Shown one piece after another: positions 3,820 to 29,620 of a stretch of 64,000 bases of DNA. The stretch spans positions 171,306,001 through 171,370,000 of the forward strand of contig NC_042998.1 in NCBI RefSeq assembly GCF_006345805.1. The letters run 5' to 3'. Source of the DNA: Octopus sinensis. Taxonomy: Eukaryota. Both the position numbers and the translations under genes were made by a program. The notes beneath the pieces were generated by a model. It had not been told where the DNA came from. It did not search any database and saw only the letters and a program-made list of their open reading frames with translations. Within the stretch, counting starts at the first letter, position 1; each line of letters starts with the position of its first letter.

Positions 3820-4198
3820 CTTTTTTACTATTTTCGGTCATTGGTTTGAGAGTATGCCGCGGCACCGTCTAGAAATGTTTTGGTTAAACAAATCGATCCC
3901 AGTACTTATTTTGTTAGCCCTATACTTATTCTAACGGACTCTTTTGCTGAATCGCTTATATACGAGGACGTAAACAAACCAACATCGGTTGTCATCAGGT
4001 GGCGGTGGGGGACAATCATGAACACACACACACACACACACACGACAGGTTTCTTTTGGTCTCCCCTAGAAAATCCACTCACAAGGCTTAGGTCGTCCCG
4101 GAGATTTAATAGAAGAGACTTGGTCATGGTGCCACGCAGTGGGTATGAATCTGGAACCATATGGTTGGAAAGCAAACCTCTTATCCCTCAACCGCGCT
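3820..4198 (-). mobile_element. tRNA-derived SINE, family B (diverged copy)
   Basis: Reverse complement matches the 32682-33088 copy (head, internal (TG)n, AATAAGTACT segment, tail). Confidence 0.85.
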
Positions 4199-4984
4199 TA
4201 GATACATACATACATACACACACGCGCGCATATACACGCGCATATATATAAATAGAAAGCCAGAAAAACAGAAAGAGGTGTACATAATGTATTTATATGG
4301 AAAGTTGCTTATGCAAATCGCATAATGTAATCATGTCTTATCTGCATTGTTCTTACAGATAATTGATGACTGGTTGATATAACTGCACATTATGCAAAAA
4401 AAAAATACTAAGTCGTTGTTGTAGCTACACATAAAACAAAGGAAACTGTCAGCGAGCATCGATATTGATAGCTCCGTGAAACGAAGTCACGATATTCCAT
4501 CAGAAGAATCGGGTGCACCCTCCTTACCCACAGAGTTTATACAGTTTCACACACGGATTTTATACAGTTTATTGAAACTAAATGTTTATCTTATAACTCG
4601 AAGTTCACGCCATCGCGATCATTCAGGCGAGAACTATAACAGCTTGGGCTGTTTGTAAATTAATATTCATCGGTGTTGGTGTTGTTCCTTGTCCATATCT
4701 GTTCATTGGTTTGCTCTTTACATCCGTTGGCTGGATGTTATTTTTGTGTCCTTTCATTGGTTAGTATTTGTGGCTTGGTGTTTACTTTCTTTGTACTTGT
4801 TGATGAGCAGTCCGCTTTTGTAGATTGTTATCTTTTCTTTGTTATTTATTTACGGAATTTATCAGTTAATCAATTAACGCTGTTTTTGGTCAACACTGTT
4901 TCGATGTGTGTCGTGTTTGCAAATATTAATGGTATGTACATTATTTACATTTGACTGATATTTGTCCTCATCTTGTTTGTTGTT

Positions 4985-5030
4985 AACACAACGTTTCGGC
5001 AGATATACCCTCCAGCCTTCATCAGGTGTC
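4985..5030 (-). ncRNA. Type I minimal hammerhead ribozyme motif (PLE-type)
   Basis: Minus strand GACAC-CUGAUGA-a-GGCUG(gaggguauau)CUGCC-GAA-ACGU-U-GUGUU. 5-bp stem I, stem II with one U-U mismatch, palindromic ACGU stem III. Lies downstream of a minus-strand PLE fragment. Confidence 0.75.
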
Positions 5031-26777: not shown

Positions 26778-26868
26778 TATACATATATATATATACATAT
26801 ACACATATATATGCATATATATATACACCTTTATGTGTATGTGTATATATTTATATATATATATATAC
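26557..26868. repeat. (TA)n-rich microsatellite
   Basis: Direct reading. Confidence 0.95.
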
Positions 26869-27644
26869 ATTTCATGTTTGACAATACGTTTTATCGACAA
26901 AAATCCGGAATTCCCTTGGGCAGTAGAGCAGCCCCAGTCATTACGAACCTAAAAATGGGCTATCAGGAAATAGTAATATACCAGGAATTTTTATCTATCT
27001 TTCCCAATACATAAAAGAAAATTGGAAAAGATTCCTAGACGACTGTTTCATACGCTGGAATGAAAGCACAGACAAACTTCTGAAATGCAAAAGACTATTG
27101 AACTGCGTCAACCAAAACATACTGTTCATAATGGAGTACAACCAAAAAGAGCTCCTATTCTTGGATTTACTAATTAAAAAGATAAACCTAAAAATAGAAA
27201 AGTACATATTTTACAAAACCACAGACGTCAAACAACATCTACTATTTAATTCATGACACCCAAGACACACCAAAACAAAATCCCCTTCAACCTTACAAGA
27301 AGGATATGTGCAATAGTGTCAGAAAAAATACCAGAGACTTTAGACTGCAAGAACTCAAAAACACCCTAATTGATAGATACTACCTAGTTCACCTCATAAA
27401 GGATGGAATCAGACGTGCAACACAAATCAACATAGAAACCTCAAAAAAAGTTCAACACAGCAACACACCTTCCCTGAAAATACTGCCGTACATATCCTCA
27501 TACAACCCCAGAAGCAAAGAAGCCTTCGCCATCATCACCCCAAATTTACCAATGCTACATAAGGACCTCAAATTAAAGGAAATTTTACACACACATAAGA
27601 TCATTAAAAGCCATAAATAACCGAAATCACTAATAAAGATCCTC

Positions 27645-28120
27645 ATAAAGGATATTTAGGCGACGCTCTTGGCGTGTGTATGGCGCCCAAGTCTCACTTC
27701 CATACAGTAGAGTGCTAAGTACACCAAAGCTGCTGAGGATCATCAAATCTTTCCATGATGATATGCAAGGCACCATACAGCACAATGGTTCAACATCAGC
27801 CGCCTTCCAAATAAAAAAAAACGGCGTAAAGCTCCTACATTATTTGGCATTTTCTCGCTGCTGCTGTCACATGCCTTTGAGACATCAAATGATGGAGTAT
27901 TTCTGCGCAGTAGAAGTGACGGGAAACTGTTCAGTCACTCGTGTCTGCGTGCCAAGACCAAAATCAGAAGCGTCCTGATCAAGGAAATGCTATTTGCTGA
28001 TGATGTCGCTCTGGTATCACACACAGAAGAAGACCTGCAAAGGCTCATCAACTGTTTTAAGCAAGCATGTAGCGACTTTGGCTTAGTTATCAGCCTCAAG
28101 AAGACCAACATCATGGGTCT
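27645..28120. mobile_element. RTE-BovB-like LINE fragment with inverted junction, nested in the PLE
   Basis: Plus strand 27722-28120: PKLLRIIKSFHDDMQG...EMLFADDVALVSHTEEDLQRL...GLVISLKKTNIMG. Minus strand 27645-27721: LSTLLYGSETWAPYTRQERRLN. Confidence 0.88.
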
Positions 28121-28754
28121 ACAAACAACCTAAATCACTTAAAAAGATTCTCACAAAGGCAAAATTGTCTTTTGATATTACGGATGCAAAAGTAAAAAAA
28201 ATGTGGTAGATCGAACTGTGCAACATGTCCAAACCTGCTAGAAGGATCAGAATTCCTCTTTAAAGAGGGACAGAAATTCAAGATCAAATCTAACTTTACT
28301 TGTGCCTCTGAAAACATAATTTATGTCATAAAATGCTCGGGCTGCCACCAAGACTACGTGGGATCCACGGGACTATCACTCAGACGTAGATGCACACTGC
28401 ATCGACAACAGATTGCATTCCCAGAATACAGAATGATACCTTTTAGTGAGCACATTGAGAAATGCGCAAAGCAACTACTACCACAATTTTTAATCTTTCC
28501 ATTTTACCAATGTGCTATCGGATCATCAACACAAATTAGACTAAACAAGGAAACATTCTTCATTGAAAAGTACAAGCCCAGACTTAACCATCCCAACATA
28601 CTGATACAGAGAAATTAACACCAAGGGAAAGGAAAAAAATTTTAAGCGATTATCTCCCTTACACAGGAAGAAATCACTCATTACCTCCCCTTATTTAGAA
28701 CTCTTTTGAACATAAACACAACGATAACCCTGTTCAACATAAACATAACGTCGC

Positions 28755-28793
28755 AAGAAATTTGAAAAGCTAAACGCGAAACCGGTCTTTCTT
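28755..28793 (+). ncRNA. Degenerate hammerhead motif at the PLE 3' end
   Basis: AAGAAA-uUUGAAAA-GC(uaaac)GC-GAA-ACCGGU-C-UUUCUU. Perfect 6-bp stem I, palindromic stem III and GUC, but the CUGANGA box is mutated. Confidence 0.55.
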
Positions 28794-28906
28794 CGAAATT
28801 ATGTCATTATAAGAGAAAAAATTTTTTTAATATTCTTCAGACATATTGACGCAAATATATATATTTTAACATTTAAGCTTCTGTAGTTTTTTCCCTTTTT
28901 ACTATT

Positions 28907-28908
<2 letters not shown>

Positions 28909-28991
<83 letters not shown>
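28909..28991. repeat. (AT)n microsatellite
   Basis: Direct reading. Confidence 0.95.
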
Positions 28992-28995
<4 letters not shown>

Positions 28996-29153
28996 AGTAA
29001 TTGAATGAATTATCTTATTAAGGATAATTCGAAAGATAACCGATACCTGGGTAGCAAATTCACATCAGAAAGAACACGGATTATCGCCATGGCTCCTTGA
29101 GAGCGGTCAGCTGAAAGTTTTTTGTGCATTTTGATGTCGACGTAAGTTCCTTG

Positions 29154-29238
29154 ATTTTCCTGATGAGAAATCTGCATAATGTACTCCTTATTCATTCGGA
29201 ATTAGGAATATGCACCCTTCGAAACATATGTCGAGAAT
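29154..29238 (+). ncRNA. Type I hammerhead ribozyme motif with intact core and extended stem II
   Basis: AUUUUC-CUGAUGA-[GAA..UGCAUA...UAUGCA..UUC, 54 nt]-GAA-ACAUAUGU-C-GAGAAU. 6-bp stem I (one G-U), palindromic ACAUAUGU stem III, GUC site (cleavage after 29232). Confidence 0.85.
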
Positions 29239-29292
29239 AAAGGATATTTGTTAACTAGTCGTTCAACTCCATTCTTTCATATACTTATAATT

Positions 29293-29620
<328 letters not shown>

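What the first reader, a model, noticed from the sequence alone, without database searches (positions are those of the whole stretch)
28992..29292. ~300-bp non-coding unit in (TA)n carrying an intact hammerhead ribozyme with an unusually long stem II
Seen: at 29154-29238 a complete type I hammerhead with CUGAUGA, GAAA, GUC, a 6-bp stem I and a self-complementary ACAUAUGU stem III. Stem II spans 54 nt and folds as GAA/UUC, UGCAUA/UAUGCA and a distal UCCU.AUUC/GAAU.AGGA hairpin. The unit is bounded by (TA)n on both sides, has a 5' hairpin (GAATTATCTTATTAAGGATAATTC) and no ORF. Established: PLE terminal repeats and metazoan non-LTR retrozymes carry type I hammerheads, often with palindromic stem III that works as a dimer, and retrozymes yield small circular RNAs. 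Inference: a solo terminal repeat or retrozyme monomer of a family that may target (TA)n. It differs in sequence from the hammerhead of the adjacent PLE at 28755.
Basis: partly seen in the sequence, partly recalled or inferred. Interest (0 to 1): 0.75.

Follow-up and report, generated by a model that had tools for sequence, protein, structure and literature searches.

The report
Two-armed Penelope-element stump with hammerhead
The 300-base unit is a dead-end fragment of an abundant Penelope-like jumping gene that lands in TA repeats: an 88-base backwards piece joined to the element's terminal repeat, which carries a hammerhead ribozyme motif with an unusually long arm. It was likely made when both cut DNA strands primed copying of the element's RNA, which is a known kind of insertion.

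Summary
A complete type I hammerhead (HHR) lies at 29154-29238(+). Rfam RF00163 scores it 29.2 bits, below its cut-off of 34, and finds it only when 131 nt are searched. Stem II is 54 nt, the unit has (TA)n on both sides, and it holds no ORF.

The unit is not a discrete retrozyme monomer or solo repeat. It is one insertion of a Hydra-like Penelope-like element (PLE: RT plus C-terminal GIY-YIG) that targets (TA)n, and it has two arms.
- 28992-29079 is 88 nt of the element's leader ("tail"), in antisense.
- 29080-29292 is the HHR-bearing pseudo-LTR, in sense.

The ten copies colinear with the window all have different arm junctions. In a sample of 30 termini, 17 are two-armed, and every partner arm ends at a second fixed site 157 nt away.

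This matches the known PLE signature: an inverted 5'-truncated copy, a "tail" at one end, and two internal RT start sites used on both DNA strands.

Two features are less ordinary. Stem II is 54 nt, against 10-25 nt in 16 HHRs of related elements, and it is kept in two subfamilies with one compensatory pair. The tail is long, conserved and predicted to be structured. This copy is probably inert. Overall it is ordinary, with a modest variant.

The parts
28911..28991 (.). (TA)n tract, the target microsatellite on the left of the insertion
   Evidence: Sequence. 30 of 30 sampled family termini of this type abut TA/CATA repeats.
28992..29079 (-). Antisense arm. It holds 88 nt of the element's leader ('tail'), read backwards. 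It starts at terminus E2 (TTTGAG..., the reverse complement of ...CTCAAA) and ends at the arm junction ...GAACACGG|ATTATCGCC.
   Evidence: 100% match to L031 1215-1128 in reverse (L054). In 7 of 7 copies with the 5'UTR, this stretch lies in sense between the 5' pLTR and the ORF. Junctions differ among 10 of 10 colinear copies.
29007..29030 (-). 8-bp stem-loop (GAAUUAUC/GAUAAUUC) close to terminus E2. The stem is identical in both subfamilies.
   Evidence: Sequence. All 8 pairs are predicted in the F1+F2 alignment; 7 are kept in 8 of 8 sequences and one is broken in 1 of 8. No covariation.
29080..29292 (+). Sense arm: the pLTR from the clustered 5' end (the A of an Inr-like TCATT) to terminus E1 (ACTTATAATT, merging into (TA)n)
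   Evidence: Matches L031 4355-4586 at 91.5%. 17 of 17 determinable partner arms end in this E1 zone. Sense-arm starts cluster at L031 4355-4410 in 9 of 19.
29149..29243 (+). Type I hammerhead motif: stem I 29149-59/29233-43, CUGAUGA 29160-66, 54-nt stem II 29167-29220, GAAA 29221-24, palindromic helix III 29224-31. The predicted cut is after C29232.
   Evidence: RF00163 at 29.2 bits, E 8.9e-6, on 29154-29238; own descriptor; pair counts on 59 copies. This copy carries a G-to-C change that breaks one stem II pair, 29172/29215.
29293..29590 (.). (TA)n-rich tract on the right of the insertion
   Evidence: Sequence.

Best explanation
The unit is a truncated, two-armed insertion of a (TA)n-targeting, Hydra-like Penelope-like retrotransposon, and it was likely formed by target-primed reverse transcription on both nicked strands of the microsatellite.

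What is shown:
- The family's reference copy (L031) reads: (TA)n, an inverted arm, the 5' pLTR with HHR, a 157-nt leader/'tail', the 5'UTR, an RT-GIY-YIG ORF, the 3'UTR, the 3' pLTR with HHR, then (TA)n.
- Copies end next to TA repeats at only two places. E1 is the end of the pLTR. E2 is the end of the tail, 157 nt further on.
- In the window, 28992-29079 is the last 88 nt before E2 in antisense. 29080-29292 is the pLTR up to E1 in sense.
- The junction between arms is different in every colinear copy.

What is inferred:
- One DNA 3' end annealed at the UA-rich E2 site of the RNA, and the other annealed at the UA-rich E1 site.
- The E1 cDNA ran through the hammerhead to the RNA's 5' end, near an Inr-like TCATT.
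- The E2 cDNA stopped after 88 nt, and the two cDNA ends were then joined.
- The hammerhead belongs to the parent element's transcript. There, two pLTR copies would pair through the palindromic helix III to cut as a dimer.
- This fragment lacks the promoter-like TATAAAG and TGACGTCA motifs, which lie just upstream of its start. It is therefore probably inert.
For: Abundance and architecture
- The unit is a high-copy repeat: 2337 first-look candidates and 60 scored matches. In most copies, query 69-291 is inverted relative to query 1-85.
- L031 is colinear with a 803-aa relative, P0001 (residues 1-784), with in-frame stops and a frameshift.
- L031 has the DKT motif and YRDD, and a weak GIY-YIG hit (E 0.006).
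- Relatives carry DKT, CxCX5C, CxxC and CxH. These are the traits Craig et al. 2021 list for the Hydra clade, together with canonical HHRs and (TA)n insertion (PMC8557442 section 11, read).

Arms, junctions and termini
- All 10 colinear copies have different junctions.
- In a position-ordered sample of the first 30 of 124 exact E2 termini: 30 of 30 abut TA/CATA repeats; 17 have an abutting sense arm and all 17 end at E1; 2 more sense arms run off the locus; 8 (window included) have an antisense arm shorter than 157 nt.
- In a sample anchored on the pLTR (L011-L030; the partner ends of L015 and L030 read): 9 pairs are mixed E1/E2, one more is probably mixed (L014, left end cut by the locus), 1 is E2/E2 (L023) and 0 are E1/E1.
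- In subfamily F2 (74-79% identical), 11 of 30 loci have abutting E2+E1 arms.
- In 7 of 7 copies with the 5'UTR, the tail lies in sense upstream of it.

Literature
- Craig 2021 sections 6 and 15 (passages) describe the inverted 5'-truncated copy and a tail often at one end.
- Frangieh et al. 2024 (PMC11167929 main text) show that a PLE protein cleaves and extends both strands, and starts RT at two internal RNA sites whose interval is the 'tail'.
Against: - No RNA data. No run on record as RNA holds the unit, so the RNA 5' end, the RT start sites and the cleavage are all inferred from DNA copies.
- Many junctions are nearly symmetric (L037, L042, L058 and the F2 hairpins). A snap-back of a single cDNA would explain those as well.
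- One E2/E2 pair exists (L023).
- Frangieh et al. saw RT starts that were not homologous to the target and found no strand difference in start site. Here both sites are UA-rich, and the two arms of one insertion use different sites.
- In F1 the 5' ends are spread over about 55 nt rather than at one base. The TATA-to-TCATT distance (15-21 nt) is short for a TATA-driven start.
- The Hydra assignment rests on motifs, not on a tree. The linker cysteines are absent from the decayed reference copy.
Confidence: 0.8

Rival explanations
1. Same element and same two termini, but made by one cDNA. RT primes at E2 on one strand, the nascent cDNA snaps back or switches template to make the sense arm, and the far end is captured at the AT-rich E1 zone by the other (TA)n end.
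For: Near-perfect hairpin junctions in several copies: F1 L037, L042 and L058; F2 L074, L082, L083 and L089. The sense arm always stops at the first TA-like stretch, E1.
Against: In 8 of 30 sampled copies, the window included, the antisense arm is 50-150 nt and does not contain the pLTR. It cannot have templated the sense arm. Both-strand extension has been shown in vitro for another PLE (PMC11167929).
Confidence: 0.12
2. A non-LTR retrozyme monomer or other non-autonomous HHR element with its own fixed ends. It would be transcribed, self-cleaved and circularised, then re-inserted into (TA)n.
For: An HHR with a palindromic helix III, small size, no ORF, and many copies. Animal retrozymes are reported to derive from PLE pLTRs (bioRxiv 10.64898/2026.07.22.740005, abstract only).
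Against: Junctions between the two parts differ in 10 of 10 colinear copies. The left part is antisense to the right part in the parent element. Adjacent HHRs are 32 on opposite strands against 5 on the same strand, with no short-period arrays; a 420-bp same-strand pair in L088 was not examined. Ends are E1/E2, not the HHR cut site.
Confidence: 0.04
3. A solo pLTR left by recombination between the two pLTRs of a full-length copy.
For: The sense arm is roughly the pLTR.
Against: Sense-arm starts vary from copy to copy. The arm is fused to an antisense tail piece of variable length. Only 7 copies of the 5'UTR 36-mer exist against 124 of the E2 40-mer, which points to 5' truncation at insertion rather than later loss.
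Confidence: 0.03
4. A chance hammerhead-like motif in AT-rich repeat DNA.
For: The Rfam score is below the gathering cut-off. The MFE fold is not HHR-shaped. Within each subfamily the core is no better kept than the flanks.
Against: The same motif sits at the same place in two subfamilies that are 74-79% identical. Their cores differ only at the free positions N7 and H17, and one stem II pair is compensated: UA in 33 rows, AU in 25. HHRs occur beside the ORF in related elements, with 16 hits in 13 of 77 loci and 0 in shuffles.
Confidence: 0.01

Closest known systems
Insertion units of endonuclease-positive Penelope-like elements: pLTR, adjoining inverted 5'-truncated copy, and a 'tail' at one end (Craig et al. 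2021, PMC8557442; Frangieh et al. 2024, PMC11167929)
   Same: An RT plus C-terminal GIY-YIG parent, an HHR in the pLTR, heavy 5' truncation, an inverted arm, two alternative termini with the extra stretch at only one end, and an AT-rich/microsatellite target.
   Different: The interval between the two termini is 157 nt (F1; 155 nt in F2) against the 30-40 bp reported. It is a conserved, predicted-structured leader. Both termini are UA-rich like the target, whereas the in vitro starts of the anole element were not homologous to the target.
Hydra clade of PLEs (Craig et al. 2021, section 11)
   Same: DKT motif, C-terminal GIY-YIG, CxCX5C/CxxC/CxH in intact relatives, a canonical HHR, and insertion into (TA)n. 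The clade is reported from aquatic invertebrates including arthropods.
   Different: The unit is about 3.5 kb between the two HHRs, against 'generally <3 kb'. No tree was built. The reference copy is decayed.
Metazoan PLE/type I hammerheads with short palindromic helix III that act as dimers (Cervera and de la Pena 2014, PMC4209133)
   Same: Type I, an open 6-bp helix I, G10.1-C11.1, a palindromic helix III (ACAUAUGU), and HHR pairs on opposite strands 100-700 bp apart.
   Different: Helix II is 54 nt (12 proximal positions with a 2-nt internal loop, an asymmetric loop, a 9-position distal hairpin). That paper-8 bp 'larger than usual', and I measured 10-25 nt in 16 HHRs of related elements.
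Non-LTR retrozymes (animal HHR tandem repeats giving circular RNAs)
   Same: An HHR of pLTR origin, small and non-coding.
   Different: No tandem head-to-tail organisation, no fixed unit, and ends not at the cut site.
Twin priming of LINE-1 (recalled from memory, no call)
   Same: Two target 3' ends prime on one RNA and give an inverted 5' part joined at a variable point.
   Different: Here both priming sites are fixed internal sites of the RNA, and the enzyme is a GIY-YIG PLE protein.

Membership tests
Hammerhead ribozyme, type I (Rfam RF00163) | Catalytic core C3-U4-G5-A6-N7-G8-A9, G12-A13-A14, A15.1-U16.1, and H17 not G | tested here: met
   All are present in the window copy. 51 of 59 aligned distinct copies keep the core.
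Hammerhead ribozyme, type I (Rfam RF00163) | Three helices around the core, with helix I open | tested here: met
   Helix I is 6+4 bp, helix II two segments, and helix III 2 bp plus an AUAU loop, or 8 bp as a dimer. 90.1% of cells pair, against 34-46% when partners are slid. The structure was derived from these same sequences.
Hammerhead ribozyme, type I (Rfam RF00163) | Score at or above Rfam's gathering cut-off (34 bits) | tested here: not met
   29.2 bits. It was found only on a 131-nt search. The 50-nt insert in stem II costs score.
Hammerhead ribozyme, type I (Rfam RF00163) | Covariation supporting the helices | tested here: inconclusive
   There is one compensatory event (pair 34-71, UA 33 / AU 25), two pairs gained in F2, and U-A to U.G in stem II. 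All lie between just two subfamilies. 59 of 72 distinct sequences were aligned.
Hammerhead ribozyme, type I (Rfam RF00163) | Self-cleavage after H17 | not testable with these tools
   No RNA run on record. Contigs cannot show RNA ends.
Penelope-like element, Hydra clade | [quoted passage not shown] | tested here: met
   L031 is colinear with P0001 over residues 1-784. GIY-YIG is weak in L031 (17.3 bits, cut-off 22.6) and passes in relative P0026 (23.6 bits). No such ORF lies in the window itself.
Penelope-like element, Hydra clade | DKG modified to DKT; CxCX5C linker; CCHH absent | tested here: inconclusive
   DKT is present in L031 and in relatives. CxCX5C, CxxC and CxH are in P0001 and P0002, but the cysteines are lost in the decayed L031. 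Absence of CCHH was judged by eye only.
Penelope-like element, Hydra clade | Canonical HHR in the pLTR and insertion into (TA)n | tested here: met
Penelope-like element, Hydra clade | Placement in the clade on an RT phylogeny with Repbase references | not tested
   No reference Hydra sequences were at hand.
Non-LTR retrozyme | Head-to-tail tandem repeats, each with an HHR, and unit ends at the cut site | tested here: not met
   Adjacent HHRs are 32 on opposite strands and 5 on the same strand. Of the 5, one is the 3516-bp pLTR pair (L031), two are one place fetched twice with two different families (785 bp, L066/L069), and two are family-2 pairs not examined (420 bp in L088, 1690 bp in L071). 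Ends are E1/E2.
Non-LTR retrozyme | Circular RNA of unit length | not testable with these tools
   No RNA reads.

The most novel reading that the evidence does not exclude
Every insertion of this element is made by one RNP that primes both strands of the cut TA repeat on a single RNA. It uses two fixed UA-rich start sites that bracket a conserved, structured 157-nt leader, one site per strand. Both cDNAs run back to the transcript's 5' end inside the pLTR. The thousands of mini fold-backs would then be a genomic record of the element's transcription start and of both RT start sites. The expanded 54-nt helix II would be part of the RNA platform that the protein holds.
Probability: 0.3. Interest if true: 0.55.

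Novelty: new member of a known kind. Interest (0 to 1): 0.3.

Why it matters
How PLEs insert is still poorly understood; one in vitro study exists, on a vertebrate Poseidon element. This invertebrate, Hydra-like family gives a natural data set that fits the study's two-start-site, both-strand model and adds two details.
- The two arms of one insertion almost always use different start sites. All 17 partners of E2 arms end at E1, 9 of 10 further pairs are mixed, and 11 of 30 F2 loci show the same E2+E1 arrangement.
- The 'tail' between the sites can be a 157-nt conserved module.

For ribozyme annotation, an HHR with a 50-nt insert in helix II escapes Rfam's gathering threshold and its filters. 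For this window, the practical result is that the unit is a repeat fragment, not a gene or an independent RNA element.

Tried and rejected
- Rfam at gathering on the whole window and at E<=10 on 1.1 kb gave no hammerhead. Only the 131-nt search did.
- The MFE fold of the motif is not hammerhead-shaped and is no more stable than shuffles (z -0.89). Cofolding predicts a more stable dimer (-39.6 against 2 x -16.3 kcal/mol), but through an extended palindrome that also buries GAAA. No weight was given to this.
- Pfam found no RT domain in the element's ORF pieces or in intact relatives. Homology to 660-800-aa relatives was used instead.
- RNA evidence: no RNA holder is listed. Logan contigs of four runs were laid on L031 880-1300. 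They are short unitigs and cannot show expression, starts or cleavage. In the large run of unknown kind, loose ends that run into TA repeats sit at 1059 and 1225, the two termini. That run may be the assembly's own sample.
- A strict TSS reading of the 5'-end cluster was tested. F2 inner ends are tight: 8 of 20 truncated E2 arms fall within 12 nt. F1 ends spread over about 55 nt. I therefore keep 'RNA 5' end' as an inference only.
- Selection within copies: core positions vary as much as the flanks inside each subfamily. Individual copies decay neutrally, and only the between-family comparison speaks for constraint.
- A tblastn of the element's protein and of relatives against the window gave no hit. 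The adjacent repeat is therefore not the same family.
- Earlier notes of this scan on this genome: none.

Full report
**1. The observation**

The sequence at 29149-29243(+) has every part of a type I hammerhead:
- Helix I pairs C29149-C29159 with G29233-G29243 (6 bp, one G.A mismatch, 4 bp).
- CUGAUGA lies at 29160-29166.
- Helix II is 54 nt, at 29167-29220.
- GAAA lies at 29221-29224.
- The palindrome ACAUAUGU lies at 29224-29231, followed by C29232.

Rfam gave nothing at its gathering thresholds on the whole window, and nothing at E<=10 on 1.1 kb. When only 131 nt were given, RF00163 matched 29154-29238 over the full model at 29.2 bits (cut-off 34) and E 8.9e-6, with 50 nt where the model has 10 in helix II.

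The TA repeats on both sides, the hairpin at 29007-29030 and the lack of an ORF are also as described. The minimum-energy fold is not hammerhead-shaped.

**2. The unit is a repeat, but not one module**

The 291-bp unit has 2337 first-look candidates in the 2.7-Gb genome. Sixty matches were returned from the 40 candidates scored. In most of them, query 69-291 (B, holding the HHR) is inverted relative to query 1-85 (A), with 72 bp between them.

Ten copies are colinear with the window. Aligned, each has a different A/B junction: A ends anywhere from about 60 to 110 nt, and B starts at different bases. These are therefore independent events, not copies of one 300-bp element.

**3. The parent element**

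A reference copy, L031 (G000:C30:3483000-3489500), reads as follows:
- (TA)n
- A(+) 233-315, spacer, B(-) 388-612, 3'UTR(-) to 922
- B'(+) 924-1059 with the HHR
- spacer 1060-1127
- A(-) 1128-1212, ending ...CTCAAA
- 5'UTR
- ORF from 1266
- 3'UTR 4045-4354
- B(+) 4355-4586, ending ACTTATA
- (TA)n

The ORF is broken. It is nonetheless colinear with an intact 803-aa relative over residues 1-784. Relatives of 660-800 aa, 32-44% identical, lie on contigs most of which are 2.3-4.5 kb.

L031 has a DKT motif and YRDD, and a weak GIY-YIG match. The relatives P0001 and P0002 carry DKT, CxCX5C, CxxC and CxH. Craig et al. 2021 give these traits for the Hydra clade, together with canonical HHRs and insertion into (TA)n in almost all families (PMC8557442 section 11, read whole). 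I call the family Hydra-like. No tree was made.

Only 7 copies of a 5'UTR 36-mer exist, allowing one mismatch. The terminal 40-mer of A has 124 exact copies. In 7 of 7 of the 5'UTR copies, A(-) lies directly upstream of the 5'UTR. So B is the pLTR, and the spacer plus A is a 157-nt leader between the 5' pLTR and the ORF.

**4. Two termini and two arms**

Copies meet TA repeats at two places only. E1 is the end of B (L031 1059/4586, a zone up to about 1081). E2 is the end of A(-) (L031 1212).

I took the first 30 of the 124 exact E2 termini in genome order.
- 30 of 30 abut TA or CATA repeats.
- 17 have an antisense arm of 50-370 nt directly joined to a sense arm, and all 17 sense arms end in the E1 zone.
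- 2 more have sense arms that leave the fetched stretch.
- 4 are single truncated arms.
- 5 are antisense arms longer than the stretch.
- 2 are complex.
- 8 of the 30, the window among them, have an antisense arm shorter than 157 nt.

A second sample was chosen by similarity to B (L011-L030; the partner ends of L015 and L030 come). Pairs with both ends readable are 9 mixed E1/E2, 1 E2/E2 (L023) and 0 E1/E1. One more (L014) is probably mixed, but its left end is cut by the locus. The two termini are about equally common there (15 and 14 arms by my count). With independent choice, 9 or more mixed pairs out of 10 would have a probability of about 0.01 (computed by hand).

A second subfamily, F2, is 74-79% identical to F1 and has 2544 first-look candidates. 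It shows the same pattern. 11 of 30 loci have abutting arms, one ending at E2 and one at E1. 3 more have the two arms separated, and 1 has a partner arm that stops short.

**5. The window copy under this scheme**

28992-29079 is the last 88 nt before E2, in antisense. 29080-29292 is the pLTR from L031 position 4373 to E1, in sense. The junction reads ...GAACACGG|ATTATCGCC.

**6. Inner ends**

Sense-arm starts in F1 cluster at L031 4355-4410 in 9 of 19 two-armed copies. In F2, 8 of 20 truncated E2 arms and 4 of 14 partner arms end within F2 335-346. Several junctions are near-perfect hairpins.

In both subfamilies an Inr-like TCATT lies there. A TATA-like box, and in F1 a TGACGTCA, lie just upstream. 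The window's sense arm, and those of two other colinear copies, start at the A of TCATT.

I infer that both cDNAs tend to run to the 5' end of a transcript that starts in the pLTR. This is not shown. F1 ends are spread, and the TATA-to-TCATT spacing is short.

**7. Mechanism**

The published picture fits.
- Craig et al. describe heavy 5' truncation, an inverted 5'-truncated copy next to the unit, and a 30-40-bp 'tail' often at one end only (passages of sections 6 and 15, and the legend of fig. 2).
- Frangieh et al. 2024 show that a purified PLE protein cleaves and extends both strands, and starts reverse transcription at two internal RNA sites whose interval corresponds to the tail. They also show that the HHR is protein-assisted and not needed for insertion in vitro (main text).

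Here E1 and E2 play the part of the two start sites, and the 157 nt between them play the part of the tail.

A single cDNA that snaps back cannot make the window-type copies, because an 88-nt antisense arm holds no template for the pLTR. Priming on both strands is therefore the better model. Snap-back remains possible for the symmetric copies.

There are two differences from the in vitro system. Both sites are UA-rich like the target. And the two arms of one insertion use different sites.

**8. The tail**

An alignment of 3 F1 and 5 F2 tails is highly conserved. RNAalifold predicts a long imperfect hairpin plus the 8-bp stem-loop beside E2. Of 44 predicted pairs, 2 have compensatory changes, and the terminal stem-loop does not covary. 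Its role as the RT recognition or start module is an inference.

**9. The hammerhead as such**

59 of the 72 distinct HHR sequences found in the fetched loci were aligned (34 F1, 25 F2). The 13 left out were shorter than full length or had indels. Some of them have core changes, for example L048 and L076.
- For my structure, 90.1% of cells pair, against 34-46% with partners slid.
- One pair is compensated between the subfamilies (UA in 33 rows, AU in 25).
- Two internal-loop positions become G-C in F2 (20 and 10 rows).
- One U-A becomes U.G.
- Helix I has U.G in 31 rows and U-A in 27.
- The core differs between subfamilies only at N7 (U or A) and H17 (C or A), the two free positions.
- 51 of 59 rows keep the core.
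- Inside each subfamily, the core varies as much as the flanks.

So single copies decay freely, and any constraint acts on the source elements.

The window copy differs from the commonest F1 sequence at two bases. One lies in loop 2. The other breaks the pair 29172/29215.

Helix III is the usual metazoan form, 2 bp plus a palindromic AUAU loop, which is expected to work as a dimer (Cervera and de la Pena 2014, passages). That paper also reports HHR pairs on opposite strands 100-700 bp apart. In my loci, adjacent HHRs were 32 on opposite strands (128-1490 bp apart) and 5 on the same strand (some loci overlap one another).

**10. Is helix II unusual?**

77 metagenome loci encode relatives of the ORF. 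In them, my descriptor allowed about 8-95 nt between CUGANGA and GAAA and required a perfect 5-bp helix I. It found 16 HHRs in 13 loci and none in 5 shuffles.

Helix II was 10-13 nt in 11 hits and 23-25 nt in 5. The HHRs lie just before or after the ORF. The descriptor is strict, and many contigs barely exceed the ORF, so 64 loci without a hit mean little.

Cervera and de la Pena-8 bp 'larger than usual'. The 54-nt helix II is thus an outlier, and it is kept in both subfamilies here. I did not open the supplementary HHR lists of either paper.

**11. Rivals**

The retrozyme reading fails on the variable junction, the antisense left part, the lack of tandem arrays, and ends that are not at the cut site. 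The solo-pLTR reading fails on variable starts and the fused antisense piece. Chance is excluded by conservation across subfamilies and relatives.

**12. Verdict**

This is an ordinary, dead-on-arrival stump of a known kind of retrotransposon, correctly spotted as hammerhead-bearing and TA-targeted. The long helix II and the long structured tail are modest variants. The one-site-per-arm rule is a useful detail for people who study PLE insertion.

Earlier notes of this scan from other genomes describe the same kind of mini fold-back PLE insertions. They are AI notes and not independent evidence.

Noticed in passing
window 28119-28916 (older part 26868-27651): Another abundant repeat (2347 first-look candidates, copies 93-97% identical) ends at the same (TA)n tract. 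Other loci of it show inverted arms. One locus (L109) has a weak hit to the C-terminal endonuclease part of Hydra-type proteins, so it is probably a second PLE family.
   Followed up: partly
window 28755-28800: The 'hammerhead of the adjacent PLE' gets no Rfam hit at E<=10 on 141 nt. By eye the motif reads AAGAAAU-UUGAAAA-GCUAAACGC-GAAA-CCGG-UC-UUUCUU. That would be the U3/A8 core variant described by Cervera and de la Pena 2014, with a 2-bp helix II. It is conserved in the 11 other fetched loci (12 occurrences).
   Followed up: partly
window about 4990-5025, minus strand: My hammerhead descriptor gives a second hit (CUGAUGA, 20-nt helix II, GAAAC). Rfam reports no hammerhead there at E<=10.
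   Followed up: partly
L031 4343-4375 and L066 306-342: Promoter-like motifs lie in the pLTR just upstream of the clustered 5' ends: TGACGTCA in most F1 copies, TATAAAG or TATAGATAG, and TCATT. The window copy starts at the A of TCATT and so lacks them.
   Followed up: partly
L031 1060-1212; L066 561-715: The 157-nt leader between the two termini is more conserved between the subfamilies than its surroundings. It is predicted to fold into a long imperfect hairpin with 2 compensatory pairs.
   Followed up: partly
L023 (G000:C25:17556184-17559402): This is the one two-armed copy in which both arms end at E2, an exception to the mixed E1/E2 rule.
   Followed up: no
L031 1168-1170: Contigs of public runs diverge here into variants of the terminal stem-loop with other loop or stem letters. 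This suggests further subfamilies in this and related organisms.
   Followed up: no
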